Notes under the pieces: model-generated
Database searches by the model: none
Seen by the model: only the letters and a program-made list of their open reading frames with translations
Told to the model about the DNA's origin: nothing
NCBI GenBank assembly: GCA_041649045.1
Contig: JBAZNV010000002.1
Location: 50,336-114,335, forward strand
DNA from: Candidatus Pacearchaeota archaeon
GTDB taxonomy: Archaea > Nanobdellota > Nanobdellia > Pacearchaeales > GW2011-AR1
Reading direction: 5' to 3'
DNA: 64,000 nt
Part shown: positions 1 through 40,057 of the stretch, in pieces
Numbering within the stretch: position 1 is the first letter of the stretch
How the letters are laid out: every line of letters begins with the position of its first letter
Made by a program: the position numbers and the translations under genes

Positions 1-2244
1 TATCCTGCAGGATTTGACTTGAAAAACGAAAGATATCAGTCCATCGCAAAATCGATTTGTGGGATGGCAAATCAAAAATGTACAGTTGTATACAAACCAA
101 AATTTACAGGTGGATGTGAAATAGAATATAATAAAGATTGTCTTAGTGAGGAATTCGGCCAGAAAATGAACGATTTTTGTCGGGGGCTCGGCGATTGCGG
201 TGGAGAAGTAAATATTTTGGGAGAATACTCTGAGAATTATAAAATTACAAAATCTCCAAAACTAAGTCAATCATGGATAGCCAAATTAAAGGGATTAGCA
301 ACGCCCATCCAGGGCCAAATTGCAGAAGTAGAAAATTATGCAAAATATTTAGAAGCAGCAGGAGTAATCAAAACGCAGAATGAAGTAGAAAATTATAACG
401 TTGACGAAGACCTTATGAAATTAGGAACTGGAGTTGCGGGAATTGGCTATGCGATGGGAGTAGTCGCGGTCGCTTCTTATTATGGCGTGGGGCTATCAAC
501 CCTAACATTAGAAGGCTTGGGCACAGCATCTGTCTGGCAATCTTCATTGGGATCAACACTCGCACCATTTTCTGGTGCTGCAATAGGCGCAGGGATAGGA
601 ATGATAGCAGGAATGTATCTGGCAAAAGTGTTAAAACTTGCACCAATGGGTTCAATCTTAATGTCAATAGGAGGTGGAATCGTTGGCGGAGTTTTGGGCT
701 ATGAGATGGTGTTGCAAACAACATTAAATCCAATTTTCTTTTGGGTCGGCGTTGCATTGATTGTTTTTTCTCTTTTTTTCGGAAGCAACGACTGCAAACC
801 AAAAATCGTTGAATTTGAATGCAAACCATGGCAGCCGCCAAAAGGGGGAAGCAACTGCGAAGAGTGCAACGGCGACTCGCTTAAACCATGTTCCGAATAT
901 AGGTGTAGTAGTCTGGGTGCAGCCTGTGAATTAATAAATAAAGGGACAGCAGAAGAACTTTGTATAGATAAAAATCCGGATGATACAACTCCGCCAACAA
1001 TCACTCCCCAATACGGGGTAATTTCGGAAAACGAAAAATACAATCAAATTACTGATAAAGGTTTCAAAATTTCTTCATCAACGAGCGAATGCATAGATGC
1101 TTATACAGATTTGGAATTCGGAATCCAAACTAATGAACCAGCACAATGTAAGTTTGACCTTCAAACTAAAAATTTTGAAGACATGGAATTTGATATTGGA
1201 GGGAATAATTTCTTATATAATCACACAACTATATTCACTCTTCCGGACCCAAGTCATGGGCAAAGCCAAGGGGGAAACTGGACAGGCGAACTTGATCTTT
1301 ATATAAAATGTCAGGATACTCACGGACACGAAAATCCGGATTTTTACACCATAAACCTATGCGTGAAAGAAGGTCCCGATAAAACACCGCCAAGAATAAA
1401 ATCCTTAAACCCGGGAAACAACGAACTAATTAGTTTCGATAAAACAGAGACAAGTTCACAAATAATTACTAATGAACTTTCAGAATGCAGGTGGGATATT
1501 GCAGACAAGGACTACTCTCTTATGTCAAACCAAATGATTTGTGACAAAGATTTATTATCGCCATCTTCGACGCTTGGGTATATGTGCAGTACAGCCTTGG
1601 CGTTAGCATCAAGCGAAAATATTTTCTATGTAAGATGCATAGATCAGCCATGGTTAAATGGGACAGGGAATGCGAATACACAAAGCTTTCTATATACTTT
1701 AAAAAAACCCGGGAACAAAATTGCGATTGATGAAGTATTGCCAAATGAAGACTTCAAAAGTTCGACAACATTTTCCTCAATTGAATTACAAGTGAAAACT
1801 TCGGGTGGCGGGATTAGGCATATATGTTCATATTCATTTTCTGGCTATGAAAAAACAATCGAATTTTTTGAAACAGGAGAGTCAAATATCCATAAACAGC
1901 CGCTTAATGTAAGATCAAGTACAAACAAAATTTTTATAGAATGCACGGACGAAACAGGAGATTATGCACGTTCCGAAACAGAATTTAAAATTAACTTTGA
2001 CAGTTCATCGCCTCAAATTTCAAGAGTATGGAGAGGGGAGAATACCCTTAATTTTATTACAAATGAAAAAGCAGAATGTAGTTATTCAGAAAAAAGTTGC
2101 CTCATGAATTCAAATGAAAAGACAACTCAGTTAAGCGAAACTCATAAAATCGAAATTTCGACAGGCAAAAATTATTATATTAAATGCACAGATGAATTCG
2201 GAAATACGCCGACAGGATGTTCGTTGATAATTAATCCCGTCTAA
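1..2244 (+). CDS. Giant Cys-rich secreted/membrane surface protein, paralog A (5' partial; frame open to window start)
   Basis: The reading frame is open from nt 1, and the listed start is TTG at 19, so the true start is probably upstream. It has a central Gly/Ala-rich hydrophobic segment followed by the Cys module CKPWQPPKGGSNCEECNGDSLKPCSEYRCSSLG. It contains the motifs LGDCGGEVNILGEY and FGIQTNEPAQCKFD, which recur in ORF 3007..6912. Stretches at 190-204, 891-920 and 1120-1160 are conserved at DNA level with 4641-4655, 5492-5521 and 5740-5780. Confidence 0.55.
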   Translation, partial: YPAGFDLKNERYQSIAKSICGMANQKCTVVYKPKFTGGCEIEYNKDCLSEEFGQKMNDFCRGLGDCGGEVNILGEYSENYKITKSPKLSQSWIAKLKGLATPIQGQIAEVENYAKYLEAAGVIKTQNEVENYNVDEDLMKLGTGVAGIGYAMGVVAVASYYGVGLSTLTLEGLGTASVWQSSLGSTLAPFSGAAIGAGIGMIAGMYLAKVLKLAPMGSILMSIGGGIVGGVLGYEMVLQTTLNPIFFWVGVALIVFSLFFGSNDCKPKIVEFECKPWQPPKGGSNCEECNGDSLKPCSEYRCSSLGAACELINKGTAEELCIDKNPDDTTPPTITPQYGVISENEKYNQITDKGFKISSSTSECIDAYTDLEFGIQTNEPAQCKFDLQTKNFEDMEFDIGGNNFLYNHTTIFTLPDPSHGQSQGGNWTGELDLYIKCQDTHGHENPDFYTINLCVKEGPDKTPPRIKSLNPGNNELISFDKTETSSQIITNELSECRWDIADKDYSLMSNQMICDKDLLSPSSTLGYMCSTALALASSENIFYVRCIDQPWLNGTGNANTQSFLYTLKKPGNKIAIDEVLPNEDFKSSTTFSSIELQVKTSGGGIRHICSYSFSGYEKTIEFFETGESNIHKQPLNVRSSTNKIFIECTDETGDYARSETEFKINFDSSSPQISRVWRGENTLNFITNEKAECSYSEKSCLMNSNEKTTQLSETHKIEISTGKNYYIKCTDEFGNTPTGCSLIINPV

Positions 2245-2276
2245 ATATTTATAAATAAAGCATGGTTGAAATAAAT

Positions 2277-2588
2277 ATGGCGAAAAAGGGGCAGATCACG
2301 ATTTTTATTATATTGGCGATTTTAATCGTTTCCGCCATCCTCGTTTTCTTTTTATACGTAAGACCAACATTTATTTCATCAGGCAACAAATTAGATTTCG
2401 AAAATTGCGTTCAGCAAACTGTAGAAAAATCAATTTTAAAACTTGAAAAAAATGCCGGATTCGTTAACTCAGAATTTACTTACAATTATAAGAGCGAGGA
2501 ATTTACGTATCTTTGTTATACTAACGAATACTATAAAACATGTACAATACAGCAACCTTTTTTAAAACAACATTTCAGCAACAAATAG
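2277..2588 (+). CDS. Type IV pilin-like protein (class III signal peptide), N-terminal part; probably one gene with 2540..3010 if T6 at 2558-2563 is really T7
   Basis: The N-terminus is MAKKG|QITIFIILAILIVSAILVFF: a short basic leader, Gly at -1 and Gln at +1, then a hydrophobic helix, as in archaeal EppA-type prepilins. The ORF ends 25 nt after a T6 run. Inserting one T fuses it in frame to the next ORF, giving ...QQPFFKTTFQQQIEKD... Confidence 0.45.
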   Translation: MAKKGQITIFIILAILIVSAILVFFLYVRPTFISSGNKLDFENCVQQTVEKSILKLEKNAGFVNSEFTYNYKSEEFTYLCYTNEYYKTCTIQQPFLKQHFSNK

Positions 2589-3010
2589 AAAAAGATGTGA
2601 CGCAAGAAATAAATCTTTGCTATGAAAATTCTTTGCAAGATTTAAAAGACAGAGGTTATTCAGTAACATCAGGTAAATTGAATTATTCGATATTAATTAA
2701 CCCCAGTGTCGTTAATGTGAATATACAGTCTCCTACGACAGTTGGCTCAAACAAATTTTCAAGGTTTAATGTACAAATAGCCTCGCCTTTATACGAAATG
2801 CTTATGATATCGACAGTGATTCTTCAGTATGAAACATTTTACGGAGACGCCGATGTGGACTCAATTATGTCAATCTACCAGGATTATTATATTGAAAAAA
2901 TAAAAAGAGACGACGGGACCACAATCTATATTTTAAATAGTAAATCTTTTGAAAATAAATTTCAATTCGCAAGCAAAAGTTTGACGTGGCCTGCAGGATA
3001 TGTCGGATGA
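2540..3010 (+). CDS. C-terminal part of the pilin-like protein (separate frame; likely joined to 2277..2588 by a homopolymer frameshift); stop overlaps start of next gene (ATGA)
   Basis: It has no signal peptide of its own. It overlaps the upstream ORF by 49 nt in a different frame. Its stop TGA at 3008-3010 overlaps the ATG at 3007 of the giant protein, which suggests translational coupling. Confidence 0.4.
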   Translation: MYNTATFFKTTFQQQIEKDVTQEINLCYENSLQDLKDRGYSVTSGKLNYSILINPSVVNVNIQSPTTVGSNKFSRFNVQIASPLYEMLMISTVILQYETFYGDADVDSIMSIYQDYYIEKIKRDDGTTIYILNSKSFENKFQFASKSLTWPAGYVG

Positions 3011-6000
3011 AGAAAAAATTTGTTACAAGTTTTGAACTAACTATTTTGCTTTTTTCAACTTTTGCTTTTTCATTTTTAATTTATTCTGCAGACAATGTTT
3101 CCGCAGATACATCTTTGTCAGAACCAACAAGTTGTTGCGAAAAAACAAAGGATGGCGCTTTTTGCCTGAATACTAACGAAGATGATTGTGCGGCAAACTA
3201 CAAAATCTCTCAAACTTCATGCGAAACAACATCATATTGCAAACTTGGAACCTGTTATGATTCAGACGAAGGAATATGTATGGAGAACACGCCCCAGAAC
3301 ATTTGTGTTTCAAGTGGAGGCACATGGGATGAACGAGAATTAGCCGAAGTCCCACAGTGTCAACCCGGATGTTGTATTATTGCAGATCAGGCAGCATTCG
3401 TTTCGTTAGTCAGATGCAAGAAACTTTCAAATTTTTTCGGCGTGGAAAATAATTTTAAGAAGGATATAAATTCAGAAATCCAATGCATTGCGACAGCTCA
3501 ATCGCAGGATATGGGCGCTTGTGTTTATGAAAAAGATTACGAAAAAATTTGCAAATTTACAACGAGAGCTGAATGCAGCGCGCCAGAAACCATCGAAAGT
3601 GTGAATTCATCATCTTCGGGAAAGAAATTCTATAAAGATTATTTATGTTCGGCCGAAGAATTAAATACGATTTGCGCACGACAAACTTCGACAATATGTT
3701 ATGGAGGGAAGGTTTACTGGGTAGATTCATGTGGCAACAGGGAGAATGTATACTCATCAAATAAAGATAAGAGTTGGAATAGAGGAAGAATAGCCGAGCC
3801 CGATACAATCTGCTCCCCAAATTCAGGGACAAACAAAAACTGTGGAAATTGTGATTATTTTCTTGGAACAAGATGTGCAGAATGGGATGGCTCAACAGGA
3901 AAACCATCAGGGAGTGAATATTATTGTAAAAAAACAGAATGTGTAGATAGAAACGGCGATAAGAAATTAAATGGAGAAAGTTGGTGTGTTTACGATGGAG
4001 AAGTCGGGAATGGCTTGGACTCAGTTGGTTCAAGATATTTTAGAGAAATTTGTGTTGACGGCCAAGTGAAAGTTGAGCCATGCGCAGAGTATCGAAACGA
4101 GATTTGCCTTGAAGGTTCAATAAAAACATCCGAAGGAGATTATTCAACAAGCGCGTGCAGAGTAAACAGATGGCAAGATTGCATATTACAAGATGAGCAA
4201 GAAGATTGTCTGAATATAGATAAAAGAGATTGCTTATGGCTTCCCTCTATAACAGGAATTATCCTTGGTTCTGCGAAATCCGATTCTTCAAAGCAAACCG
4301 GTTTTTCAAACCCAACAGCAGGAGAGACAGTCTTTTCAAACCCAACAGCGACAGGCAACGTAATTTCGCCGATTACAGGAGAAATTGCATGGGGCGGGAC
4401 AGAAAAAGAAGATGAAAAAACAATGACAACAAACCCTGATGGGATTTGTGTTCCAAACTATCCCCCCGGATTAAAATTCTGGGAAGGAACAATAAATCAA
4501 CAAACTTGTGCCCAGGCAAGCGCAAAATGTATAATTAAATATGAAAAAGGAATTCTTGATGGAAGTTGGGAGTGTATAGAAAATTGTGAATGCGAAGACG
4601 AAGACTGGGCCTTGGACGTAAATCGGGTTTGTGCAGCTCTCGGCGATTGCGGTGGATACGTAAATTATTTAGGAAAATATACGGATGATGGATATGAATG
4701 GAAATCTGACAATGACAAAAAAGAATTTTCTCCAAACAATATAAATAAAATTAGCGGAGGCTTCACGGGGATGGTTGCAGGATTTATCGATAAAATAATT
4801 ATAACTGGGAATACACTCGCCCAAACACCAACCCCTGTTTCAGGAATTCAGGTAGCCGAAGGAATCGCTGCAAGGTCATCAACACTAATTACAAAAGAAG
4901 CTGTGCAGGTCGAAGTCGTAAAATTTGCAGAAATGGGGCCATTTTCATCCATGCCAGCCAGAGAAACAATCCTCATCGCAAAAGATACCCCCATCACCCT
5001 GTCCGCTAACGGCGGAACATTCGTTTCAGGAGATAAAGTTTATTCTTTAACTAATGCTCAAATCGAAACTGTGCGGGGAGCAGGAGGTGTTGGGCAGCAA
5101 ACAAGTAAACACTTTCTTTCAGGTAAATTAGGTTTGGAAGCGGGGGGGCTTCCTGATGCTCTTGCAACGGGTATTCAGTGGGCAGCGGTTGCATACGGAG
5201 CGGGTTATTTAATTGGAAGTCTATTTGGGATGAGCAAACAAAATACCCAATCTCTTTCAACAGCAATGGCAGCCGGTTCTTTCACATGGCAAAGTCTGGC
5301 TACATATAAAGCCGTAAATCTCGGATGGTTCAGTGCAAATCCATTTTTAACAGGGTTGGGCGTAGGCGCCATTGTTTTCATAGCAATGTATAAAAAATAC
5401 GAAACAAAAACAGTTTCATTTGATTGCTTGCCATACCAAGCTCCTTCTGGCGGAAACGATTGCGAAAAATGCAACGATCCAACTCTCCCATGTTCCGAAT
5501 ACAGATGTAAATCACTCGGTCAGAATTGCGAACTCGTAAATATCGGGACTAAAGAAGAAAAATGTGTAAACATTAATCCGCGAGACGTGAATTCGCCGGT
5601 GATAAAACCAAACACAGAAGAACTAACAGATGGCCATAAATATACAAATATAAAAACATCTCCTCCTGGCCCGGGATTCAGTATAATATCAACCAATAAT
5701 CAAGACGGATGTTTGCAGGCATTTACACCATTAAAGTTTGGGATTCAAACTAACGAACCAGCACAATGCAAGATAGATTTTAATCACACAACAAAATTCG
5801 ATGACATGATTTCATTTATGGGCGGGAGCAATTTATATTCCTACAATCATACCGAACAGTTTTCACTTCCAGGAGCAAAATTATTCGAAAATTCATCGTT
5901 GATACTTCAAAATGGAAAAGACATGACTTTTTTCATAAGATGCAAAGATAAAAACGGGAACGAGAATTCAGCAGAGTACGCAGTAAATCTATGTGTTGAC

Positions 6001-6912
6001 CCAAGCCCCGATACAACAGCTCCCCAAATAAAAGCAACGTCAATTGAAAACAATGGATGTATTGCAGAAAATTACGATTCCGTGGATGTAGAATTTTACG
6101 TCAACGAACCTGCCGATTGCAAATGGGACTTTCAGGATACAAGTTACGAAAACATGGGAAATGAAATGACATGCTCGAATGAACTATATCAGGTAAATGC
6201 AAACTACTTGTTTACATGCAAGACAGAATTAAGTGGCATAGCACGAGACGGAACCAATTTCTACGTCAGATGCCAAGACCAACCCGAAAGCGACATTAAT
6301 GATAGAATAACAAATAAGGAAAGTTTCGTATTTTCCCTCAGAGGCAGTACAGAATTAAAATTAAGTTATCTGATGCCAAACAGCACGCTTTCCGGATCAG
6401 TAAATCCCGCTCCAATAGAATTGTACGCCGAGACCGTTTTTGGCTGCAATAACGGGCAATCAATCTGCTACTATTCGACAACAGGAGACGAAGACGATTA
6501 TATAATGTTTTACGATACAAACAATGAAGATGGGATCAGCACCCAAAGACAGGATTTAGCTTCAGGCGACCACAAATACTATATTCGATGTATCGATGCA
6601 GGGGGGAATGTTGTGGAAGACATGATTAGATTTAATCTTGATATAGACACAAGTGCCCCAACAATAACGAGAATTTACGAAGAAAATAAAAATTTGAAAA
6701 TAATCACAGTAAGAAGTAGCGAGTGCGCTTATAGCTTCAACAACTGTGATTTTAGCTTTGAAGAAGGAGTCGAAATGCCATACGCAAATTCAACAATCCA
6801 CGTCGCAGAATGGAACAAAGATAAAACATATTATATAAAATGCAGGGACGAATTTAAAAATGAAGATGCAGATTGTTCGGCAATCGTAAAACCGAGCGAT
6901 AATTTTTTATAA
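3007..6912 (+). CDS. Giant Cys-rich secreted/membrane surface protein, paralog B (1301 aa from Met at 3007)
   Basis: It has a signal peptide MKKKFVTSFELTILLFSTFAFSFLIYSA and a Cys-dense N-terminal third. It carries LGDCGGYVNYLGKY, a Gly/Ala-rich hydrophobic block, and then CLPYQAPSGGNDCEKCNDPTLPCSEYRCKSLG. Beta-rich modules follow, each seeded by NEPAQCKID / NEPADCKWD. It is paralogous to the ORF at 1..2244. Confidence 0.6.
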   Translation: MKKKFVTSFELTILLFSTFAFSFLIYSADNVSADTSLSEPTSCCEKTKDGAFCLNTNEDDCAANYKISQTSCETTSYCKLGTCYDSDEGICMENTPQNICVSSGGTWDERELAEVPQCQPGCCIIADQAAFVSLVRCKKLSNFFGVENNFKKDINSEIQCIATAQSQDMGACVYEKDYEKICKFTTRAECSAPETIESVNSSSSGKKFYKDYLCSAEELNTICARQTSTICYGGKVYWVDSCGNRENVYSSNKDKSWNRGRIAEPDTICSPNSGTNKNCGNCDYFLGTRCAEWDGSTGKPSGSEYYCKKTECVDRNGDKKLNGESWCVYDGEVGNGLDSVGSRYFREICVDGQVKVEPCAEYRNEICLEGSIKTSEGDYSTSACRVNRWQDCILQDEQEDCLNIDKRDCLWLPSITGIILGSAKSDSSKQTGFSNPTAGETVFSNPTATGNVISPITGEIAWGGTEKEDEKTMTTNPDGICVPNYPPGLKFWEGTINQQTCAQASAKCIIKYEKGILDGSWECIENCECEDEDWALDVNRVCAALGDCGGYVNYLGKYTDDGYEWKSDNDKKEFSPNNINKISGGFTGMVAGFIDKIIITGNTLAQTPTPVSGIQVAEGIAARSSTLITKEAVQVEVVKFAEMGPFSSMPARETILIAKDTPITLSANGGTFVSGDKVYSLTNAQIETVRGAGGVGQQTSKHFLSGKLGLEAGGLPDALATGIQWAAVAYGAGYLIGSLFGMSKQNTQSLSTAMAAGSFTWQSLATYKAVNLGWFSANPFLTGLGVGAIVFIAMYKKYETKTVSFDCLPYQAPSGGNDCEKCNDPTLPCSEYRCKSLGQNCELVNIGTKEEKCVNINPRDVNSPVIKPNTEELTDGHKYTNIKTSPPGPGFSIISTNNQDGCLQAFTPLKFGIQTNEPAQCKIDFNHTTKFDDMISFMGGSNLYSYNHTEQFSLPGAKLFENSSLILQNGKDMTFFIRCKDKNGNENSAEYAVNLCVDPSPDTTAPQIKATSIENNGCIAENYDSVDVEFYVNEPADCKWDFQDTSYENMGNEMTCSNELYQVNANYLFTCKTELSGIARDGTNFYVRCQDQPESDINDRITNKESFVFSLRGSTELKLSYLMPNSTLSGSVNPAPIELYAETVFGCNNGQSICYYSTTGDEDDYIMFYDTNNEDGISTQRQDLASGDHKYYIRCIDAGGNVVEDMIRFNLDIDTSAPTITRIYEENKNLKIITVRSSECAYSFNNCDFSFEEGVEMPYANSTIHVAEWNKDKTYYIKCRDEFKNEDADCSAIVKPSDNFL

Positions 6913-6913
6913 A

Positions 6914-7402
6914 ATGAAAAAAAAAGCACAAGAATCCATTGGGATGTCATTCGGCGTAATTTTTGCAATTTTTTTAATAATTATTTTTTTGCTTGTAGCT
7001 TTCTTCACGATAAAACATTTTTTAGACATAGAAAAAACTTCAAAAGTTGGTTTATTTTATCGTGATTTTCAGGAATCCGTGGATTCAGCCTTTATCAGTC
7101 AATCAACAGAATTTAATTTTGAAATTAATCTTCCTCCAAAGATAGAAAAAATTTGTTTTGCAAATCTTTCAGCCAAAATAACTGGCAATCAGGCAGATTA
7201 TAAGGAACTGGAAAATTATGATATTTATGAAGCGAATGTTTTTTTAATCCCATCGCAATTTGCGGAAAGCATGGAATACAAATTAATCAATCATCTAAAC
7301 ATTACAAAAATAATTGAAAACAAAAATCCGTATTGTATTCCCGTCTCTCAAAATATATTAATAAAAAAAGACTTTTACGACAGGTTGGTTAGTGTAGAAT
7401 AA
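6914..7402 (+). CDS. Pilin-like small secreted protein (class III-like signal peptide)
   Basis: The N-terminus is MKKKAQESIG|MSFGVIFAIFLIIIFLLVAFF. It starts 2 nt after the giant gene's stop codon. Confidence 0.4.
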   Translation: MKKKAQESIGMSFGVIFAIFLIIIFLLVAFFTIKHFLDIEKTSKVGLFYRDFQESVDSAFISQSTEFNFEINLPPKIEKICFANLSAKITGNQADYKELENYDIYEANVFLIPSQFAESMEYKLINHLNITKIIENKNPYCIPVSQNILIKKDFYDRLVSVE

Positions 7403-7431
7403 TTAATAAACTATGCCTCCAATATTTTATT

Positions 7432-8361
7432 ATGAAAAGAGGTGAGTTTAATTTTGTCTGGCTCTTCGCAATAGTTGTGGGCGGATTGATTTTATTTTTA
7501 GCTGTGTATGGCGCCACAAAAATAGGAGACACCAAAAAATATCAGACAGACAGTGAGATAGCAAAACAAATTTCAATTTTAACTGACCCAATGCAGGCAG
7601 GTTTTGCCGAAGGAAGTTTCAGCAAAATGACTTTCAAGCAAGAGATAAAAATAAAAAATCTTTGTTCAGTCGGAAATTTTGGAGAAAATGAAATTTCGGT
7701 TTCAACAAAAACAAACAACAAATGGAATCAGTTCGGAGCAGGAACAATAATACCAAATAAATATATTTTTTCCGCGGAATTAAACGAAGGAAAAGAATTT
7801 TACATTACTTCAAAACCATTTAATTTTCCTTATGAAGTAAGCGACATGATATTTTTGACTTCAAAAGAATATTGTTTCTCTAATTCTCCTGATGAAATAT
7901 CCGAAGAGATAAAAGAACTAAATATCCCAAATATAAAAATAGAAAATTGTTCTGGTTCAGAAATAAAAGTTTGTTTCGGCTCATCGGCAAACTGCGACAT
8001 AGTAATTTATGGTACATGTTTATCAAACTGCGATTCTGTTTACGAGGAAGGTGTTGTAGAAAAAAAAGAAGAAATAATAAAATACGTAGACAATTTATTA
8101 TTGGCAGCAATTTTTTCAGATAAAACGGTTTACGATTGCAATATCAATAGACTTTTGCAAAGAACATCTTCAATTGCAGAATTATATAGCGAAAAGGCAG
8201 ATATCTCAAATGCAAGAAATTGCAACACCAATCTCAAAAGCGACTTGTTATTTTGGAAAGATTTCACTGTGAATTCAACTTCAGACGAGATTATTTCCCT
8301 TAATATTTTATCAAAAAGCTTACAAATTAAAAATGAAAGGGAATTATGTAAATTATGGTAA
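7432..8361 (+). CDS. Pilin-like secreted protein (class III signal peptide)
   Basis: The N-terminus is MKRG|EFNFVWLFAIVVGGLILFLAVYG, a classic basic-Gly leader followed by a hydrophobic helix. Confidence 0.45.
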   Translation: MKRGEFNFVWLFAIVVGGLILFLAVYGATKIGDTKKYQTDSEIAKQISILTDPMQAGFAEGSFSKMTFKQEIKIKNLCSVGNFGENEISVSTKTNNKWNQFGAGTIIPNKYIFSAELNEGKEFYITSKPFNFPYEVSDMIFLTSKEYCFSNSPDEISEEIKELNIPNIKIENCSGSEIKVCFGSSANCDIVIYGTCLSNCDSVYEEGVVEKKEEIIKYVDNLLLAAIFSDKTVYDCNINRLLQRTSSIAELYSEKADISNARNCNTNLKSDLLFWKDFTVNSTSDEIISLNILSKSLQIKNERELCKLW

Positions 8362-8855
8362 GAGCACAAATGAAAATTCAGCAAATGGCGTTTATGATTT
8401 TGGCGGTTTTTTTATTTTTTGTTCTGGTTGGTTTATTTTTTTTAGCTATTCAATTTCGGGACATAAATAAAAATGCAGATAGGATGCAGACAGAACAGGC
8501 AATATCATCATTAAAAGTAATCGCGGACATGGCCGAGTTATCTTATGATTCAACAGACACATTAACAATAGACGAAGATAAATTAAAGATAATGTCAACC
8601 AAATTTTCTGAAAAATATAAAAACTTCTGGCCAGTTGCCTCAATCAAAATTTACATAATTTACCCATCGTTCAACAAGACAATCAAATGCCCAGAAACGA
8701 ACTGCAACTATTATGAGATTTTAGACAACGGACAAAAAAACATAAAAGAATATTCCACTTTCATTTCTATATGTAGCAAAATAAATAATTTCGGGGTTTA
8801 TGATAAATGCGGAATAGGAAAAATAGTCGTAGGAGTCAAAATAAATGAAAAATAA
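8355..8855 (+). CDS. Pilin-like small secreted protein
   Basis: The N-terminus is MVRAQMKIQQMAFMILAVFLFFVLVGLFF. It overlaps the previous gene by 7 nt, consistent with an operon. Confidence 0.4.
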   Translation: MVRAQMKIQQMAFMILAVFLFFVLVGLFFLAIQFRDINKNADRMQTEQAISSLKVIADMAELSYDSTDTLTIDEDKLKIMSTKFSEKYKNFWPVASIKIYIIYPSFNKTIKCPETNCNYYEILDNGQKNIKEYSTFISICSKINNFGVYDKCGIGKIVVGVKINEK

Positions 8856-9330
8856 TCACAAAGCCCAGCAGGAAATGGTCGGTTTTGTCTTGATAGTCAT
8901 CTTGGTAATTGTAGGAGTAATGGTTTTTTTAATCCTTTCATTAAAATCTCCCGAAGAACAATCCAGCTCAAATGTTGATAATATGCTCGGAGCGATAATG
9001 AAAATAACGACAGAATGTGCCATTGTTTTCGAACCCCAATTCGAAGATTTGCATGATTTATTTGAGAGTTGTTACGCAGGAAAAAAATGTGCGAATCTAA
9101 ACATCGACACCTGCGAATACCTTAATAAAACGCTCCAGAACGTTTTTGCCGATATTATAAAAACCGAAAGCACAATAGAATCATATCAGTTTGACTTTTT
9201 AATTAAAGAAGGAGATAGTTTACTTGAGATTAAAGAGGGAAATTGTTCGGGAGAATTTTCTTCAGCACAAAGAAATCTTGGAAATTCTGCGAATTTGGTT
9301 GTTAGATTAAAGATTTGTAAATCAGATTAA
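8845..9330 (+). CDS. Pilin-like small secreted protein
   Basis: The N-terminus is MKNNHKAQQEMVGFVLIVILVIVGVMVFLILSL. It overlaps the previous gene by 11 nt. Confidence 0.4.
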   Translation: MKNNHKAQQEMVGFVLIVILVIVGVMVFLILSLKSPEEQSSSNVDNMLGAIMKITTECAIVFEPQFEDLHDLFESCYAGKKCANLNIDTCEYLNKTLQNVFADIIKTESTIESYQFDFLIKEGDSLLEIKEGNCSGEFSSAQRNLGNSANLVVRLKICKSD

Positions 9331-9683
9331 ATATTAATAATTATTTGCAAACTATCGACTGAAAGCACGGGCCTCAACGATTCTCTTTTCCCCCTTTTTT
9401 CCGAAATGAATTCTAAAAATCCAAATCGCTCAAGAGACAAAACGTCTTCTCTGACAGACTTAAAGTCCCTTCCAAGAATTTTTGCAAGAGCATAAATAGA
9501 ACAAGGATTTTCTTTTTTTAAAATATATAATATTCTTGATTTTTCATTGCTTAATAAGCTTCGCAACATTTTCACATCAGAAAAATCATGATCAGTCGAT
9601 TTCCCTATAAATTTTGAGACGAAGTTTTCCTTATTTGCATTTACTTCAACGTATCTAATTTTGGTTTTTCTTATTTGTGCCAT
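9327..9683 (-). CDS. Winged-helix (ArsR/MarR-like) transcriptional regulator
   Basis: The HTH-like segment is SRILYILKKENPCSIYALAKILGRDFKSVREDV. It is transcribed divergently from the major surface protein gene. Confidence 0.45.
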   Translation of the reverse strand: MAQIRKTKIRYVEVNANKENFVSKFIGKSTDHDFSDVKMLRSLLSNEKSRILYILKKENPCSIYALAKILGRDFKSVREDVLSLERFGFLEFISEKRGKRESLRPVLSVDSLQIIINI

Positions 9684-10078: not shown

Positions 10079-12259
10079 ATGAATAATATATTTAGAAAAG
10101 CTATAACAGTTTTAAGTAGTGTTGCTATGGTAGGTGCTACAATAGGTGCGGCTGCTGCTGCTTCCTATCCAGACCCTTTCGTAGGAAGTACCGCTGTTGT
10201 TTATGGTGCCAATGCTGCTCCTTCTGATTTCTCCGCTGCTACAAACATAGTTGCTAATTTGAACTCAGAAAATGCTGGTTCAGTTTCGCTAACTGGTGGC
10301 GAAGGAGTAACTGAAGATCAAATTCCTCTTGGAGGAAGTATCGTTTCAGGAAAAATTCCTGCCACAATTACAGATGCAAAAGTTTCAGGTCTTCTTGATA
10401 CGAAGATTAACTGGGACGATGGAGATGGAACAGGAGCTCAGGACTACAATATACAGGAACAAATTATCCTTACTGCAACAGGCATCCAACTGAATACTAC
10501 TTTAGATGATAATGAGTATGCAGAAAAGGTTGCTTTAACAAATGATAAAGCTATAGAATACAGATATGTATTTGACGATGCTTTTAATTCAACATTTGTA
10601 GATGCAGATGCAGACACTCTTTACTTAGATCTTTTAGGAAAGAGATACGAAGTTAGTGCTATGACCGCTTCAAGTCTTACAGTAACGACTTCCGAAGAAG
10701 TTTCTCTTGCAATCGGTGAGAGCTACACTTACAAAGGAAAGACATTTACTGTAGACGATGTTTACAGCGATAAGGCACAGGTTAATGGAGAACTTATATC
10801 TACAAGTTCCTCGAAAAAAATCGATGGAATGCGAGTTTATGTTTCTTCGGTAGGTTACCACTCTAACTCTCCAGAATTAAGTAAAGTAATTTTGAAGATT
10901 GGAGAAGATATTAGTAAAACCTATTCCAGTGGAGAAGAATACGTTGGAGAAGACCCAGATGACCCAGAATGGGTTTGGACTTGGTCAAATCCAGGCGTTG
11001 CTGCAGGATACATAGGTGTTAAGTATAACTATAAACAAACAAGAGATACAGATGATGTTGTCTACGCTGGAGGGAGTTTTATCTTTCCAGAAAATTATGC
11101 TGAAGTAAAATTCGAAGGTCTAACAGACGTAGATTATAAAGACTATAAAGTCTATTTTGATCTAACAGAAGATCTTTGGAATAGTACTGACTTGACTTCT
11201 ACAGCTACTGTTCAAGATGCCCCTGTTTTAATCATCGAAGCGCTAAGTGGCGAGAAAGATGCTATTAAAATATCTGGTAATGCAGATGTTGGTGGAGGAA
11301 CGACAGTAAATATCGAAACAAATAAGATTTATCTTAGATGGGCGGTAAATCAATCCGCTACAGAATCGACTGAAGACGAAGTAGGTGTTGGGGTAGATAA
11401 TTTTGGTGGACTTGAACTCTTTTACAGCGATGTAAATGGAGATGTTTCATCATCCATAAAACCAAGGTTTGGTGCACGTTACAATTCAACTGCAGTAGCA
11501 GGAACTATATCTGAAGTAGATTTGGGAGATTTAATCGTTGGAGATACAGAAGTTCAAATTTTAGCTACAGTTGCTGATAGTGATTTGAATTTGACTTTCA
11601 TCGATGACGGTGCTGCTAACTCAATCCAGGTAGATGTGGGAGGTGTAAACTTAACACACGCTACTGGCTCTATGAAATGGTTAGGTGGGAACACTGAAAC
11701 CACAAGCAAAGAAATTGGAGAATCTACAGATATTAATGTTACAGCAGGAGGAGTACTAACCTCTATCGGGACCTATGATAATGATGTTATGACTTATAAC
11801 GGGCTTATCATAAAAACACCCGAAGCAAACGCTGACGATGATCAGGTTATAATCAGTGTTCCAAGCGACAGAGTATACGGTATAGTATCGGTACTCGCTG
11901 GTGGAAGTGCTGTTGACGGCGAAACAGGAGCTTTAGTAGTTAAGGACTCTGAAACTTCAAAAATAACCGGTAAAAACTTAATCGTTGTAGGTGGTTCAGC
12001 TATAAATGCTGTTGCTGCTGATTTATTGGGTTCTGCTTATGCAGGTGAAGCTTTCGCAGCTCAAACTGGCGTTGATGCAGGTAAATTCTTAATCCAGTCC
12101 TTTAATAGGAATGGGAAGACGGCTCTGCTTGTAGCTGGTTATAATGCTGCTGATACAGAAAAGGCCTCGCAATACTTGCTTAACAATGCAGTTGATACAA
12201 CTGTTGGGAAGAAGTATGTAGGAACTTCTGCTACTGAAGCTACTCTTGTAGTTCAATAA
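10079..12259 (+). CDS. Major secreted surface protein, putative S-layer protein
   Basis: It has a Sec signal peptide, MNNIFRKAITVLSSVAMVGATIGAAAAAS, and is Thr/Ser/Gly/Val/Asp-rich with no TM anchor. It has a strong SD and a long leader. Its codon usage shifts to GC-richer, Ala/Gly-rich codons relative to its neighbours, as expected for a highly expressed gene. A poly-T terminator follows. Confidence 0.5.
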   Translation: MNNIFRKAITVLSSVAMVGATIGAAAAASYPDPFVGSTAVVYGANAAPSDFSAATNIVANLNSENAGSVSLTGGEGVTEDQIPLGGSIVSGKIPATITDAKVSGLLDTKINWDDGDGTGAQDYNIQEQIILTATGIQLNTTLDDNEYAEKVALTNDKAIEYRYVFDDAFNSTFVDADADTLYLDLLGKRYEVSAMTASSLTVTTSEEVSLAIGESYTYKGKTFTVDDVYSDKAQVNGELISTSSSKKIDGMRVYVSSVGYHSNSPELSKVILKIGEDISKTYSSGEEYVGEDPDDPEWVWTWSNPGVAAGYIGVKYNYKQTRDTDDVVYAGGSFIFPENYAEVKFEGLTDVDYKDYKVYFDLTEDLWNSTDLTSTATVQDAPVLIIEALSGEKDAIKISGNADVGGGTTVNIETNKIYLRWAVNQSATESTEDEVGVGVDNFGGLELFYSDVNGDVSSSIKPRFGARYNSTAVAGTISEVDLGDLIVGDTEVQILATVADSDLNLTFIDDGAANSIQVDVGGVNLTHATGSMKWLGGNTETTSKEIGESTDINVTAGGVLTSIGTYDNDVMTYNGLIIKTPEANADDDQVIISVPSDRVYGIVSVLAGGSAVDGETGALVVKDSETSKITGKNLIVVGGSAINAVAADLLGSAYAGEAFAAQTGVDAGKFLIQSFNRNGKTALLVAGYNAADTEKASQYLLNNAVDTTVGKKYVGTSATEATLVVQ

Positions 12260-12311: not shown

Positions 12312-12329
12312 GAAAATATTTATAAGTAA

Positions 12330-12899
12330 ATGTTTTTTAAAATAATAATGATTAGAAAAATAAAAAATCAAAATGATATTAAAAAAGCCAAAAGAAGAAA
12401 CCAAATAATACTTGGGATAATTTTAATTTTTATATTGGTTGGATCAATGCTTCTGGTTGATAAAGCAGGGGATTCCAAAGACGAAAGCAAGACAACAGAA
12501 AATGGGGTGGAGTTTTATAATATAAATGATGTTTGGCAAACACAAATCGGCCAACAGGTTTTCGCGTTTTCTTATTTGCCTTCAGAATTAGATATTGAGG
12601 CAAAGGGAGTATTTTCAATTGCAGATTATTATAGCAAGCCTATCTATTTCAACGACCTGAATAATGAGGGAGCGATAGAAATATTAATGAATATCGGAAA
12701 TTTTATTCAACGATATCAGGAAGCCTGTGAAACAGAAAATTGTGAAAAAAACTTGCCAACAAAAACCTGTGAAGACATTTTTTTTATTTTCAAAGAAGGA
12801 GAGAATTCGTCAGTCTATAAAAAAGATAACTGTGTTTATATTACAGGGGATTCAAAAAAGGGAGCCGATGCATTCCTATATAAAGCTTTAAATATTTAA
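12330..12899 (+). CDS. N-terminally anchored secreted protein (paralog pair with 12916..13614)
   Basis: A basic N-terminus is followed by the TM segment IILGIILIFILVGSMLLV. The C-terminal block ...EGENSSVYKKDNCVYITG resembles ...KGNESSVVQSPKNPYCYTIT in the next ORF. Confidence 0.4.
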   Translation: MFFKIIMIRKIKNQNDIKKAKRRNQIILGIILIFILVGSMLLVDKAGDSKDESKTTENGVEFYNINDVWQTQIGQQVFAFSYLPSELDIEAKGVFSIADYYSKPIYFNDLNNEGAIEILMNIGNFIQRYQEACETENCEKNLPTKTCEDIFFIFKEGENSSVYKKDNCVYITGDSKKGADAFLYKALNI

Positions 12900-12915
12900 T
12901 TTTACAACTATCAAA

Positions 12916-13614
12916 ATGGCAAAAAAGACAAAATCCAAAGAAAAGAATGACCAAAGGGATAATGATAGAACCGTAAAAAAATCAATTATAAAAAAAGAGA
13001 ATCGTCAACTCGCGTGGTTTATTGCAATAGTAATAGTCGGGTTTATTATTTTTTTTGGAATATATTTGTATCTTGAAAAATCAAAAGAGCCTGAAAAATT
13101 TAATTATATCGGGGTAGATTGGACAGTGGAACCCTATGAAGATTTTACAACGTATCATGCAAGATTCCAGTCTTTTGCTCACGAGAATTTAACATATAAT
13201 TTATATCTTAGAAATGACCCAAGAGAAAACAATGTTTCGGTTGATGGTAATTTGACCTATTTTAAATATGGAGGAATCCTTGCTTTTTCTCCAGAGGTTG
13301 ACGAGTGTCGAGAAGATGTCCCGATAGCGACGGTAGCTTTTGCAAGTTTTTTACAATCGGTCGTCGGGATGAGAGAAGTGATTCCTGGGACAACGGACTT
13401 TGAAGTTTACCAAGAAACTGGGAAAGTGTTTACAGATTGTTCAATTTCGAATAGAGTTGTTTTTATAATACAAAAGGGGAATGAATCCTCGGTCGTACAA
13501 TCTCCAAAGAATCCATATTGTTACACGATAACAATCAAAGATTGTGAAGATGTTCTCCCAATAGAAAAATTCATAATAGAAACAATGCGAGAACGAAATA
13601 ATAATTTAGAATAA
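12916..13614 (+). CDS. N-terminally anchored secreted protein (paralog of 12330..12899)
   Basis: A Lys-rich N-terminus is followed by the TM segment LAWFIAIVIVGFIIFFGIYLYL. It shares a Cys-containing C-terminal motif with the previous ORF. Confidence 0.4.
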   Translation: MAKKTKSKEKNDQRDNDRTVKKSIIKKENRQLAWFIAIVIVGFIIFFGIYLYLEKSKEPEKFNYIGVDWTVEPYEDFTTYHARFQSFAHENLTYNLYLRNDPRENNVSVDGNLTYFKYGGILAFSPEVDECREDVPIATVAFASFLQSVVGMREVIPGTTDFEVYQETGKVFTDCSISNRVVFIIQKGNESSVVQSPKNPYCYTITIKDCEDVLPIEKFIIETMRERNNNLE

Positions 13615-13616: not shown

Positions 13617-14156
13617 TTATTTTTTCTTTTCTTTAAATTCATTTCTTATATTTAATAAAAATTTTATATCAGAATAAATCGGAACAGAATTAATCCCAAA
13701 AAGTTTTGTAACAAAAAACCAAATGGCAACTACAAAAACTATTGAAACAAGGTGCCACAAAATCCAATGAATTACATTAAAATAGAAGCTGTTTGCTATT
13801 GCTATTAAAAAAACTATTCTTGAATAATTTAAAAATAATAAAATAGCCGAAGATACAATAAGCGCCAGCATTCTTTTTTTTGGAGAAATATCATTCGTTG
13901 AAAATATAAGTAAAAATAACAGAAAAAAAGCAGAACCCGCAACACAAGCAGGTACGATTTCGATATTAAAATTTGCCATCTTGATTACATTATCGATAAT
14001 AAAAACATTCGTGAACAAGCCAACAGTTTTTGAAACCAGAAAAAGAGTTGTGGGCATAAGAATCTTATAAAAAATATACAAATTCCCAGCACCAAGAAGA
14101 AGAATAAAAAAGTATCTGGCAAACATTCCTATTATTTTTTTAGACTGATAATTCAT
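13617..14156 (-). CDS. Small polytopic membrane protein, archaeosortase/exosortase-like candidate
   Basis: It has 5-6 predicted TM helices. It contains a conserved-looking Cys (EIVPACVAGSAF) and an Arg in an N-x-x-R context (FLNYSRIVF). It sits directly beside a surface protein with a C-terminal TM+basic anchor. Confidence 0.3.
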   Translation of the reverse strand: MNYQSKKIIGMFARYFFILLLGAGNLYIFYKILMPTTLFLVSKTVGLFTNVFIIDNVIKMANFNIEIVPACVAGSAFFLLFLLIFSTNDISPKKRMLALIVSSAILLFLNYSRIVFLIAIANSFYFNVIHWILWHLVSIVFVVAIWFFVTKLFGINSVPIYSDIKFLLNIRNEFKEKKK

Positions 14157-14189
14157 TAAGATTTATAAGAAACGATATTTAAAAACTTA

Positions 14190-38981: not shown

Positions 38982-39359
38982 TTACTTTATTTTTGTAAAT
39001 CTTTTTACTCTATTCCCATCAGGCAGTTCTTTGTAGCCTATAAAATCATCAATTGTTCTAATCCAAATTGTTCCATTTGGGAAATTGTCTAATCCATAAA
39101 GTTGTTCATAGACTACATATTTTCTGTCAGAGCGTCCATTATTCAAGAGGGAGTTACGAGGAGAATTTTTTTTAATTAAAACATCGTATTCATCATTCGG
39201 ATTGTCACAATCTCTTGCCTGGATGACTGAATAATTTGTTGCTATTTCGTTGATTAAGGGGAGGTGTTTGCATTCAGTGGCAATGGCAATTATTTTATAA
39301 ATTTTTTCAGGACTTTTAAAATGTCTGTATTTTTCTCCAATTTTCGGCTCTTCGTTCAT
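38982..39359 (-). CDS. DUF1653-like protein
   Basis: The motifs GEKYRHFKSPEKIYKI and ...KYVVYEQLYG...GTIWIRTIDDF resemble the YRHYKGG...VVY..LY...W.RP...F pattern. Confidence 0.35.
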   Translation of the reverse strand: MNEEPKIGEKYRHFKSPEKIYKIIAIATECKHLPLINEIATNYSVIQARDCDNPNDEYDVLIKKNSPRNSLLNNGRSDRKYVVYEQLYGLDNFPNGTIWIRTIDDFIGYKELPDGNRVKRFTKIK

Positions 39360-40057
39360 GCTCTAACCTCCGCGCTTTCAAAATATTTTTCAGCAACCTT
39401 TTTTAACTGATTCAAATATCCCTCGCCAACATCCGGCTCCAGAACAAAACTTTCATCCACAAAATTTCCCTTATTCTTGAAACCTTGCAAGAAATATTTT
39501 TTTGGTTTTCCATCGCAAAGCTCGTTAATCCATTTTCCTAAATTTTCTATTTCCTTAAAATCATGAAATTTTTTCACTATTGTGGTTCTGAATTCATAAT
39601 TTCCAAATTTGTGAATTAATTTTATTGATTCTTCAATCTTTTTTATATCAATTTTAGAAGCCGTGATCTCGCCATATTTTTCTTCGCTTCCTTTAATATC
39701 CATTGCGATATAGTCGACCAAACGCTCATCAATTATTTTTTCTAATTTTTCCGGGAAGTTTCCGTTGGTGTCTATTTTTATCAGATATCCAAGTTCCCTT
39801 ATTTTTTTTAAAAATTCCAAATCTATATCAATCAAAGGCTCTCCACCGGTTATGCAAACAGCCTCAAGTTTTTCTTTTCGTTTTATCAAAAATTCTATTA
39901 TCGCTTGTTCAGAAAAATTTCCTTGTTCTTTTTTTATAACTAAATTCGGATTATAACAAAATCCACAGCGGAAGTTGCATCCCCATAAAAAAATCGTGCA
40001 GGCTATCTTGGAAGGATAGTCGATTAAAGTTGTTTTTTGCAATCCTGCGATTTTCAT
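39356..40057 (-). CDS. nrdG: Anaerobic ribonucleotide reductase activating protein (radical SAM)
   Basis: The CxxxCxxC motif is GCNFRCGFCYNP. It lies downstream of nrdD. Confidence 0.65.
   Translation of the reverse strand: MKIAGLQKTTLIDYPSKIACTIFLWGCNFRCGFCYNPNLVIKKEQGNFSEQAIIEFLIKRKEKLEAVCITGGEPLIDIDLEFLKKIRELGYLIKIDTNGNFPEKLEKIIDERLVDYIAMDIKGSEEKYGEITASKIDIKKIEESIKLIHKFGNYEFRTTIVKKFHDFKEIENLGKWINELCDGKPKKYFLQGFKNKGNFVDESFVLEPDVGEGYLNQLKKVAEKYFESAEVRA

What the first reader, a model, noticed from the sequence alone, without database searches (positions are those of the whole stretch)
2262..9330. Cluster of at least five type-IV-pilin-like genes interleaved with the giant adhesin-like genes, with no assembly ATPase or platform protein in 64 kb
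Each small ORF has a short basic leader, a Gly/Ala then Gln/Glu/Met at the predicted cleavage site, and a hydrophobic stretch of about 20 aa. Examples are KKG|QITIFIIL, KRG|EFNFVWLF and KAQQEMVGFVLIV. Most are translationally coupled to one another or to the giant protein genes, by a 2-nt gap, 7-11-nt overlaps, or an ATGA overlap. There are additional pilin-like ORFs at 63096..63647 and possibly 12330..13614. This looks like a minor-pilin plus tip-adhesin locus whose PilB/FlaI-type ATPase and PilC/FlaJ platform are encoded elsewhere.
Basis: partly seen in the sequence, partly recalled or inferred. Interest (0 to 1): 0.6.

Follow-up and report, generated by a model that had tools for sequence, protein, structure and literature searches.

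The report
Pilin-like surface operon of DPANN archaea
Five small genes beside two giant cysteine-rich membrane-protein genes all start with a conserved archaeal prepilin-type signal, and together they form an uncharacterised cell-surface operon, conserved next to S-layer genes in Pacearchaeota and Woesearchaeota, that probably builds a surface attachment complex.

Summary
The window comes from a Candidatus Pacearchaeota (DPANN) MAG. On the + strand at 19..9330 lies the gene order B1-A2-B2-C-D-E-F. A2, C, D, E and F each start with a 4-7 aa basic leader, then K-[KR]-[GA]|Q (E in D), then about 20 hydrophobic residues.

- ORFs 2262..2588 and 2540..3010 are one 249-aa gene, split by a 1-nt deletion in this assembly.
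- The B2-to-C gap is 1 nt, not 2.
- ORFs 12330..13614 are plain signal-anchor proteins, not pilin-like.

In 77 related loci the order (A-B)n-C-D-E-F-wHTH-S-layer-G-H recurs. The +1 Gln is nearly invariant in four families, and it is absent from 137 other proteins with an N-terminal transmembrane segment. The five families resemble each other only at the N-terminus, as pilins do.

No curated pilin model, PDB sequence or PDB fold matches any of them. No PilB/FlaI-type ATPase, platform protein or prepilin peptidase lies in the window or within 10 kb of the locus in relatives. That is usual for archaeal pilin loci.

The giant B proteins have a Sec signal and a central transmembrane hairpin, so they are membrane-embedded rather than classical tip adhesins.

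Best reading: prepilin-peptidase-processed, pilin-like subunits form a short surface assembly with B. This is a new variant of a known kind. Cleavage and the machinery remain untested.

The parts
19..2244 (+). B1: C-terminal 741 aa of a 1162-aa giant Cys-rich membrane protein. The gene starts upstream of the window and is preceded there by a further pilin-like gene, A1 (249 aa, NNKKA|QLTIFIIL).
   Evidence: It is 32% identical to B2 over the full length.
2262..3010 (+). A2: pilin-like protein of family A, 249 aa when intact. The probable start is ATG 2277 (MAKKG|QITIFIILAILIV). In the window a 1-nt deletion at 2572/2573 splits it into 2262..2588 and 2540..3010.
   Evidence: The +1 Gln is invariant in a 51-sequence alignment. 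The AlphaFold2 model of the 66%-identical homologue P0241 has pLDDT 87.
3007..6912 (+). B2: giant protein of 1301 aa. It has a Sec-type signal (MKKKF...NVSA|DTS), a Cys-rich N-terminal ectodomain of about 600 aa, a central Gly-rich transmembrane hairpin, and a C-terminal ectodomain with four repeats of a Cys-motif pair (probable Ig-like modules). Its start overlaps the A2 stop (ATGA).
   Evidence: There is no significant Pfam, NCBIfam or PDB match.
6914..7402 (+). C: pilin-like protein, 162 aa, MKKKA|QESIGMSFGVIFAIFLII.
   Evidence: The N-terminal 75 aa are homologous to D (hhalign 96%).
7432..8361 (+). D: pilin-like protein, 309 aa, MKRG|EFNFVWLFAIVVGG, with 8 invariant Cys.
   Evidence: The AlphaFold2 model has pLDDT 82.8 and pTM 0.81, with a helix at 8-50, then a beta domain, then a C-terminal helical bundle.
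8355..8855 (+). E: pilin-like protein, 166 aa, MVRA|QMKIQQMAFMILAVF. It overlaps D by 7 nt.
   Evidence: Its N-terminus is similar to that of F (hhalign 95%).
8845..9330 (+). F: pilin-like protein, 161 aa, MKNNHKA|QQEMVGFVLIVILV. A conserved Glu sits at +3. It overlaps E by 11 nt.
9327..9683 (-). Winged-helix regulator of the HVO_A0114 family. It is convergent with F and divergent from the S-layer gene, and it is syntenic in 28 loci.
10079..12259 (+). S: S-layer-like protein, 726 aa, with a Sec signal and a strong Shine-Dalgarno sequence. It is a conserved neighbour of the operon.
   Evidence: PF05124 at 27.6 bits against a cut-off of 23.9. Synteny. Shine-Dalgarno sequence.
12330..13614 (+). 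G (12330..12899) and H (12916..13614): paralogous N-terminal signal-anchor proteins without a class-III motif. They belong to the conserved block but are not pilin-like.
   Evidence: (hhalign 98.9%).
13617..15923 (-). Pacearchaeosortase (13617..14156) and its PACE-CTERM putative S-layer protein (14190..15923). Together they mark the end of the envelope-gene block.
   Evidence: NF033505 at 136.8 bits (cut-off 80) and NF033506 at 315.7 bits (cut-off 110), both. They recur in 9-11 loci.
63096..63647 (-). An unlinked protein with a class-III-like N-terminus (MKKSG|AIELSIGTIVIIVL), 183 aa.
   Evidence: (orthologue in L020). No family match.

Best explanation
Region 19..9330 is the core of a conserved cell-envelope operon of Pacearchaeota and Woesearchaeota, with gene order (A-B)n-C-D-E-F.

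A, C, D, E and F are five separate families of exported, disulfide-rich proteins. Each begins with an archaeal class-III (type-IV-prepilin-like) signal: a 4-7 aa basic leader, then K-[KR]-[GA]|Q, then about 20 hydrophobic residues.

Inferred steps:
1. The proteins are inserted with the N-terminus in the cytoplasm.
2. A PibD/EppA-type prepilin peptidase, encoded elsewhere, removes the leader and leaves an N-terminal Gln.
3. The freed hydrophobic helices bundle into a short pilus-like or stalk-like assembly, or stay in the membrane as pilin-type anchors.

The giant B proteins carry a Sec signal and a central transmembrane hairpin, with both Cys-rich ectodomains outside. Each is translationally coupled to an A protein, and together they are the displayed, probably adhesive, part of the assembly. 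The whole structure sits in or under the S-layer, whose genes lie next door.

Shown here: the motif and its conservation, the synteny and coupling, the topology features, and the absence of machinery in the locus.

Inferred only: cleavage, assembly, and a role in adhesion or host attachment.
For: - Only the five cluster genes pass the motif scan in 64 kb.
- In 77 loci the +1 residue is Gln in 115/122 A, 33/43 C, 31/37 E and 35/37 F contexts, with -1 G/A and -2/-3 K/R. Of 137 other proteins with an N-terminal transmembrane segment, 13 have [KR][GA] and none has Gln at +1.
- Leaders are 15 aa or shorter in 264 of 291 members, with a mode of 5.
- The families share only their N-termini: C-D 96%, E-F 95%, A-E 85% by hhalign.
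- The D model has a 43-residue helix with a hydrophobic first half and an amphipathic second half, followed by beta structure.
- The order (A-B)n-C-D-E-F-r-S-G-H is conserved, and gene overlaps are tight.
- The EppA-processed pilins of Methanococcus maripaludis have G|Q with a conserved +1 Gln, and lie in several loci separate from the ATPase and platform genes (PMC3875500).
- A relative (L002) encodes a canonical pilin N-terminus: TIGR02537 at 20.6 bits against a cut-off of 20.
- PilB/PilC-like genes are reported in Woesearchaeota (PMC6642349).
- B has 64-66 Cys, many of them invariant, and an even number of central transmembrane segments.
Against: - No match to PF04021, PF07790 or TIGR02537 in the window proteins or in 146 family members. 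The best is PF04021 at E = 6.3.
- No PDB sequence or Foldseek match to any pilin.
- C, D, E and F have 3-7 mixed or polar residues between the putative cleavage site and the hydrophobic core.
- The model of A's homologue shows a low-confidence linker between the helix and the globular domain, not an integrated pilin alpha-1 helix.
- No ATPase, platform protein or peptidase lies in the window or within 10 kb of the locus in 77 relatives.
- One preprint states that type IV pilus components are missing in DPANN genomes.
Confidence: 0.55

Rival explanations
1. The five proteins are ordinary uncleaved N-terminal signal-anchor (type II) membrane proteins. They form a membrane complex with B, and the K-K-G-Q motif is conserved for topology or for protein contacts, not for processing.
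For: - No curated pilin model or pilin fold matches.
- No machinery is linked to the locus.
- Neighbours G and H in the same block are plain signal anchors.
- One preprint states that DPANN lack type IV pilus components.
Against: - Positive-inside topology does not require a small residue at -1 or a Gln at +1. Yet both are kept in five otherwise unrelated families at about 30% overall divergence, and are absent from 137 control proteins.
- Leaders are uniformly very short.
- The same G|Q signature marks proven EppA substrates.
Confidence: 0.2
2. C-F, and perhaps A, are minor pilins that prime a true extended type IV pilus. That pilus carries the giant B proteins at its tip and is assembled by a PilB/FlaI-PilC/FlaJ machine encoded elsewhere.
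For: - Four co-transcribed pilin-like genes plus a large non-pilin protein with a Sec signal recall FimU-PilVWX plus PilY1, or GspHIJK (established knowledge of those systems).
- The N-terminal motif evidence is as above.
- Pilin loci lie apart from the machinery in M. maripaludis and Haloferax volcanii.
Against: - B has 2-4 central transmembrane segments, conserved in the family, which would hold it in the membrane.
- No small major pilin is present in the locus or the window.
- D has no structural similarity to any PDB minor pilin.
- The machinery is unobserved.
Confidence: 0.15
3. The operon is part of S-layer biogenesis or anchoring. The pilin-like proteins and B would form the membrane stalks or pores that tether or perforate the lattice made by the adjacent S-layer proteins. 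It would not be an adhesion device.
For: - There is constant adjacency to the S-layer-like gene S, to G and H, and often to the pacearchaeosortase/PACE-CTERM pair.
- S-layer-like proteins occur in archaeal type-4-filament loci and are proposed to prime the wall (bioRxiv 10.64898/2026.04.22.720090).
Against: - In L002 the A-B-A-B and C-D-E-F modules lie about 7 kb apart, separated by housekeeping genes, and no S gene was detected in that stretch.
- S-G-H is a separate transcription unit, divergent from the regulator.
- Adjacency alone does not give function.
Confidence: 0.1

Closest known systems
Epd-type pilins of Methanococcus maripaludis (EppA substrates, DUF361/PF04021)
   Same: Both have a short basic leader ending in Gly and a conserved +1 Gln. 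Both have several pilin-like genes of very different sizes. Both have pilin genes scattered away from the ATPase and platform genes (PMC3875500).
   Different: The +5 Glu is absent here: A has Phe at +5 and F has Glu at +3. There is no PF04021 match. The globular domains are unrelated and Cys-rich. The genes are coupled to giant membrane proteins. The peptidase is unknown.
Bacterial minor-pilin priming complexes with a large non-pilin adhesin (FimU-PilVWX-PilE plus PilY1; T2SS GspH-I-J-K)
   Same: Both have a co-transcribed set of four or five pilin-like proteins with divergent globular domains, next to a very large exported protein that uses a Sec signal. This is an analogy drawn from established knowledge.
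   Different: No sequence or fold similarity was detected. B is anchored by its own transmembrane hairpin. There is no E+5 and no major pilin in the locus.
Sulfolobus bindosome and class-III-signal substrate-binding proteins
   Same: In both, globular surface proteins use a prepilin-type signal as a membrane or assembly anchor rather than to build a long filament. Both have an association with the S-layer (bioRxiv 10.64898/2026.04.22.720090).
   Different: There are no binding-protein domains here and no Bas-like ATPase or membrane genes nearby. The lineage is different.
Archaeal type-4-filament loci with adhesin-like or S-layer-like accessory proteins (systems 1, 2 and 4A of the 2026 census)
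   Same: Both have multiple pilins with class-III signals plus large adhesin-like proteins with Ig folds. Some DPANN carry system 1 or system 4A.
   Different: Those systems are defined by an ATPase and a platform protein in the locus. Here neither is present within 10 kb in 77 loci.

Membership tests
Archaeal class-III signal peptide / type IV pilin-like proteins | A short, positively charged leader that ends in Gly or Ala at -1. | tested here: met
   Leaders are 4-7 aa in the window. In relatives the -1 residue is G, A or occasionally S, and -2/-3 are K/R, in all five families. Leaders are 15 aa or shorter in 264 of 291 members.
Archaeal class-III signal peptide / type IV pilin-like proteins | A hydrophobic stretch of about 20 aa directly after the cleavage site. 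| tested here: met
   It starts at about +1 in A and F, and at about +3 to +6 in C, D and E. The best 15-residue hydropathy windows are 3.0-3.65.
Archaeal class-III signal peptide / type IV pilin-like proteins | A match to the curated N-terminal models PF04021 Class_IIIsignal, PF07790 Pilin_N or TIGR02537. | tested here: not met
   None matches at E <= 1 for the window proteins. None matches among 146 members at E <= 0.05. The best is PF04021 at E = 6.3 for the A2 N-terminus.
Archaeal class-III signal peptide / type IV pilin-like proteins | A long N-terminal alpha helix packed onto a beta-rich globular domain. | tested here: inconclusive
Archaeal class-III signal peptide / type IV pilin-like proteins | Cleavage by an A24-family prepilin peptidase present in the genome. 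| not testable with these tools
   No peptidase was found in the window or in the flanks of 80 loci. The rest of the genome could not be read.
Type-4-filament system (census definition) | A secretion ATPase and a platform protein encoded with the pilins. | tested here: not met
   No T2SSE or T2SSF domain is found in window ORFs. No G.TGSGKTT Walker A motif is found in any of the 80 loci.
Epd/EppA-type pilins | A +1 Gln together with a +5 Glu and the DUF361 domain. | tested here: not met
   The +1 Gln is met. The +5 Glu and DUF361 are not met.
PilY1-like tip adhesin (for B) | A soluble exported protein without membrane segments, carried by minor pilins. | tested here: not met
   B1 has four central hydrophobic segments and B2 has at least two. 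Most full-length homologues have 2-4. No homology to any PDB chain was found.

The most novel reading that the evidence does not exclude
The operon encodes a previously undescribed envelope organelle of Pacearchaeota and Woesearchaeota. In it, five families of pilin-type subunits and paralogous giant Cys-rich membrane proteins would assemble without a dedicated type IV pilus motor in the locus. It could be the host-attachment or contact structure of these uncultivated episymbionts, built on a prepilin-type signal that is used as an assembly handle rather than to make a pilus.
Probability: 0.25. Interest if true: 0.8.

Novelty: new variant of a known kind. Interest (0 to 1): 0.55.

Why it matters
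Pacearchaeota and Woesearchaeota are abundant, uncultivated archaea with small genomes, and how they contact hosts is unknown. This operon is one of their larger conserved blocks of surface genes. Relatives of B were found at 532 places among species-representative genomes. Family A alone has 511 representatives at 50% identity with E <= 1e-30. None of its seven families is covered by a curated model. If the prepilin-type processing is real, the operon gives concrete targets for locating the attachment apparatus by cryo-ET or antibodies: B's ectodomains, and the A and C-F subunits. It would also extend the known uses of class-III signals in archaea.

Tried and rejected
- Pfam and NCBIfam on all cluster proteins, on 43-aa N-terminal fragments, and on 146 family members gave no pilin family.
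- PDB sequence profiles for B, A and D gave nothing.
- Foldseek against the PDB for the D model and the A-homologue model gave no hit below E = 1e-3.
- Regular-expression searches for a PilB/FlaI Walker A motif and for a GxGD peptidase in multi-transmembrane proteins found none in the window or the 80 loci. These are crude substitutes for HMMs.
- Clustering of flanking genes found PCNA, a roughly 527-aa family that I did not identify, pacearchaeosortase and the PACE-CTERM protein as recurrent neighbours. It found no ATPase and no platform protein.
- I tried to read beyond the window's 3' end through the gene at 63096. That returned only a 3.3-kb Logan contig, and the last 350 nt hold tRNA-Phe.
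- A hidden small major pilin was looked for with a six-frame scan down to 40 aa and not found.
- A foreign-island origin was considered and rejected, because the GC content of the block (0.30-0.41) matches the rest of the window.
- Six literature searches found no description of this cluster.
- I recall the FlaFind rule as [KRDE][GA][ALIFQMVED][ILMVTAS]x3. Applied from memory, it would accept only A. I could not run FlaFind itself.
Full report
**Source and context.** The window is archaeal. It carries Rpb1/Rpb2-type RNA polymerase subunits, EF-2, ribosomal proteins S7 and S12, RFC, and an S-layer-like protein. The exact giant protein at 3007..6912 is NCBI protein WC548_02955 of a Candidatus Pacearchaeota MAG, on a 125,884-bp contig. 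GC content is 0.30-0.41 throughout, and the cluster does not stand out.

**The observation.** On the + strand lie the following genes:
- B1 at 19..2244, the C-terminal 741 aa of a 1162-aa protein.
- A2 at 2262..3010.
- B2 at 3007..6912, 1301 aa from the ATG.
- C at 6914..7402.
- D at 7432..8361.
- E at 8355..8855.
- F at 8845..9330.

An independent Logan assembly of the same population (L001) is identical over 10 kb except for one base. The window has TTT where L001 has TTTT at 2572/2573. L001 also shows that a further A gene (A1, NNKKA|QLTIFIIL) precedes B1. The unit is therefore A-B, A-B, then C, D, E, F.

I scanned all 64 kb in six frames for three features together: [KR][GA], a strongly hydrophobic 15-residue window within 24 aa, and a start codon 2-25 codons upstream. 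The scan returned the five cluster genes, all with ATG starts and 4-7 aa leaders. It also returned three hits that are clearly something else.

- A2/B2 share an ATGA overlap.
- B2-to-C has a 1-nt spacer.
- D/E overlap by 7 nt.
- E/F overlap by 11 nt.

A TATA-like 'aaatatttataa' lies 13-22 nt upstream of ATG 2262. This suggests a leaderless transcript that starts at ATG 2277, giving MAKKG|Q. That is inference.

**Conservation.** B has 269 detectable homologues, all unannotated and all from Pacearchaeota, Woesearchaeota or Nanoarchaeota MAGs. A scan of one genome per GTDB species found 532 relatives, and I kept 77 loci with 10-kb flanks. After ORF calling and iterated HMM searches, the order (A-B)n-C-D-E-F recurs. 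A winged-helix regulator on the opposite strand usually follows, then an S-layer-like gene S and two paralogous genes G and H (also seen). In one genome (L002) A-B-A-B and C-D-E-F are about 7 kb apart. Tight spacing is conserved: A-to-B is -4 nt in 42 of 102 pairs, and the D-to-E and E-to-F medians are -7 and -4. Family A alone has 511 representatives at 50% identity with E <= 1e-30 in a library of 1.84 billion proteins.

**The N-terminal signature.** Consensus sequences from non-redundant contexts are:
- A: N-K-[RK]-G|Q-V-T-I-F-I-I
- C: K-[KR]-G|Q-Q-T-M-G-M-P-F-G-M-I-F
- D: K-[KR]-G|[QEF]-F-N-F-V-W-L-F-A-I
- E: K-K-[AG]|Q-M-K-I-Q-Q-M-A-F-M
- F: K-K-[GA]|Q-Q-E-[IM]-V-G-F-V-L-I-V

Gln at +1 occurs in 115/122 A, 33/43 C, 31/37 E and 35/37 F contexts. 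It is invariant in a 51-sequence alignment of family A whose mean column identity is 47%.

As a control, I examined 137 other proteins from the same loci that have an N-terminal transmembrane segment. Thirteen have any [KR][GA] in the right place, and none has Gln after it. Families G and H, in the same block, have no such site. The nearest upstream Met gives leaders of 15 aa or shorter in 264 of 291 members, with a mode of 5.

Profile-profile comparison shows that the five families resemble each other only in the N-terminal 25-75 residues: C-D 96%, E-F 95%, A-E 85%. This is the pattern expected of type IV pilins. Ordinary signal anchors need positive charge, but they do not need a small residue at -1 or a fixed +1 residue. 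The only known system that reads a site in front of the hydrophobic segment is the prepilin (class III) peptidase. That last point is established knowledge.

The pilins of Methanococcus maripaludis that EppA processes have exactly this Gly|Gln signature (PMC3875500).

**Structure.**
- The AlphaFold2 model of D (46-sequence alignment, pLDDT 82.8, pTM 0.81) has one helix from residue 8 to 50. Residues 8-28 are hydrophobic and 29-50 are amphipathic by sequence. A beta-rich domain and a C-terminal helical bundle follow.
- The model of P0241, a 66%-identical homologue of A2 (pLDDT 87.1), has a helix at 8-37, a low-confidence linker, and an alpha/beta domain.
- Neither model has a PDB neighbour below E = 1e-3 in Foldseek.
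- All five proteins and B are rich in conserved cysteines, which fits extracellular, disulfide-bonded domains.

**The giant proteins.** B1 and B2 are 32% identical paralogues. Each has four parts:
- A Sec-type signal, not a class-III one.
- A Cys-rich N-terminal domain of about 400-600 aa. It contains the invariant motifs W.DSCGN.EN and GDCGG.VN.
- A Gly-rich hydrophobic region with four segments in B1 and at least two in B2. Most homologues have 2-4.
- A C-terminal domain with repeated pairs of Cys motifs (E..C[KR][WF]D and [YF][YF][IV][RK]C.D), four copies of the second motif in B2 and fewer in B1. It also has weak Big_13/Y_Y_Y hits, and it probably forms tandem Ig-like modules.

An even number of membrane passes puts both Cys-rich domains outside the cell. 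B is therefore an integral membrane protein, not a detachable tip adhesin. No Pfam, NCBIfam or PDB sequence match reaches significance.

**Machinery.**
- No window ORF of 350 aa or more has a T2SSE or T2SSF domain.
- The ATPase at 59464..60777 is HerA/DUF87-like.
- None of the 80 loci contains the G.TGSGKTT Walker A motif of PilB/FlaI/VirB11 ATPases, or a multi-pass protein with a GxGD-K motif.
- Recurrent neighbours are PCNA, a roughly 527-aa family that I did not identify, pacearchaeosortase and a PACE-CTERM protein.

Absence from the locus is not unusual. M. maripaludis pilin genes lie in at least four loci away from the ATPase and platform genes, and Haloferax pilins are not co-transcribed with theirs (PMC3875500).

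Whether the genome has the machinery could not be tested. Indirect hints are mixed:
- A relative encodes a canonical pilin N-terminus: L002:15659-16060, TIGR02537 at 20.6 bits against a cut-off of 20.
- PilB/PilC-like genes are reported in Woesearchaeota (PMC6642349).
- TFF system 1 is reported in some DPANN (bioRxiv 10.64898/2026.04.22.720090).
- Another preprint states that type IV pilus components are missing from DPANN genomes.

**Interpretation.** The most likely reading (about 0.55) is as follows. A and C-F are prepilin-type proteins, processed at G/A|Q. Their N-terminal helices act as pilin-style assembly anchors. Together with the membrane-embedded B proteins they form a short surface structure in the S-layer region. 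The structure is probably adhesive.

Rivals are:
- Uncleaved signal anchors (0.2).
- A role in S-layer tethering (0.1).

The conserved Lys at +3 in E and Glu at +3 in F could pair in a helix bundle. This is speculation.

**Novelty.** Six full-text searches found no description of this operon or of its families. It uses a known kind of signal in new protein families and in a new, conserved architecture, so I rate it a new variant of a known kind.

Noticed in passing
window 2572/2573 (gene 2262..3010): A homopolymer length difference (T3 here, T4 in the Logan contig L001) frameshifts the 249-aa A2 gene. NCBI annotates only a 156-aa fragment (P0279, WC548_02950). This is either an assembly error or a strain variant.
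   Followed up: yes
window 13617..14156 (-) and 14190..15923 (-): A pacearchaeosortase (NF033505, 136.8 bits) lies next to its PACE-CTERM 'putative S-layer protein' (NF033506, 315.7 bits). The pair recurs downstream of the operon block in 9-11 related loci.
   Followed up: partly
window 10079..12259 (+), 12330..12899 (+), 12916..13614 (+): An S-layer-like protein (PF05124) with a strong ggaggt Shine-Dalgarno sequence is followed by two paralogous signal-anchored proteins, G and H (hhalign 98.9%). G and H might be its membrane anchors. The order is syntenic in many loci.
   Followed up: partly
window 27560..30970 (-): A single 1136-aa ORF carries Rpb1 domains 1-5. RNA polymerase subunit A therefore appears unsplit here, whereas from my own knowledge most archaea encode separate A' and A'' subunits.
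   Followed up: no
window 52270..56763 (-): A 1497-aa surface protein has two LamG (Laminin_G_3) domains, a transmembrane segment near the C-terminus, and a charged, repetitive (possibly coiled-coil) cytoplasmic tail. Its outline recalls the much larger SPEARE proteins of Nanohaloarchaeota, but it lacks a nuclease domain.
   Followed up: no
window 63096..63647 (-), tRNA-Phe 63752..63825: An unlinked 183-aa protein has a class-III-like N-terminus (MKKSG|AIELSIGTIVIIVL). It has an orthologue in L020 and no family match. It sits next to a tRNA gene, not next to pilus genes.
   Followed up: partly
window 39356..43034 (-): NrdD, its radical-SAM activase and an NrdR-type repressor occur together in an archaeon. 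From my own knowledge NrdR is mostly bacterial, so this may be a transfer.
   Followed up: no
window 59464..62411 (-): A HerA/DUF87-type ATPase lies next to a calcineurin-like phosphoesterase and a 227-aa protein of unknown function. It is not a PilB/FlaI-type ATPase.
   Followed up: partly
window 2243..2252 and 12315..12322: The same TATA-like motif 'aaatatttataa' sits just upstream of the first ATG of A2 and of G. This suggests leaderless transcripts that start at the second ATGs, 2277 and 12348.
   Followed up: no
P0275 (569-kb contig labelled Methanococcoides sp. SA1); L037 (labelled Patescibacteria group bacterium): Family A and B homologues sit on records named for unrelated organisms. 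These are probably DPANN contigs or genomes that were mislabelled or co-assembled. The 569-kb contig could be a near-complete DPANN genome.
   Followed up: no
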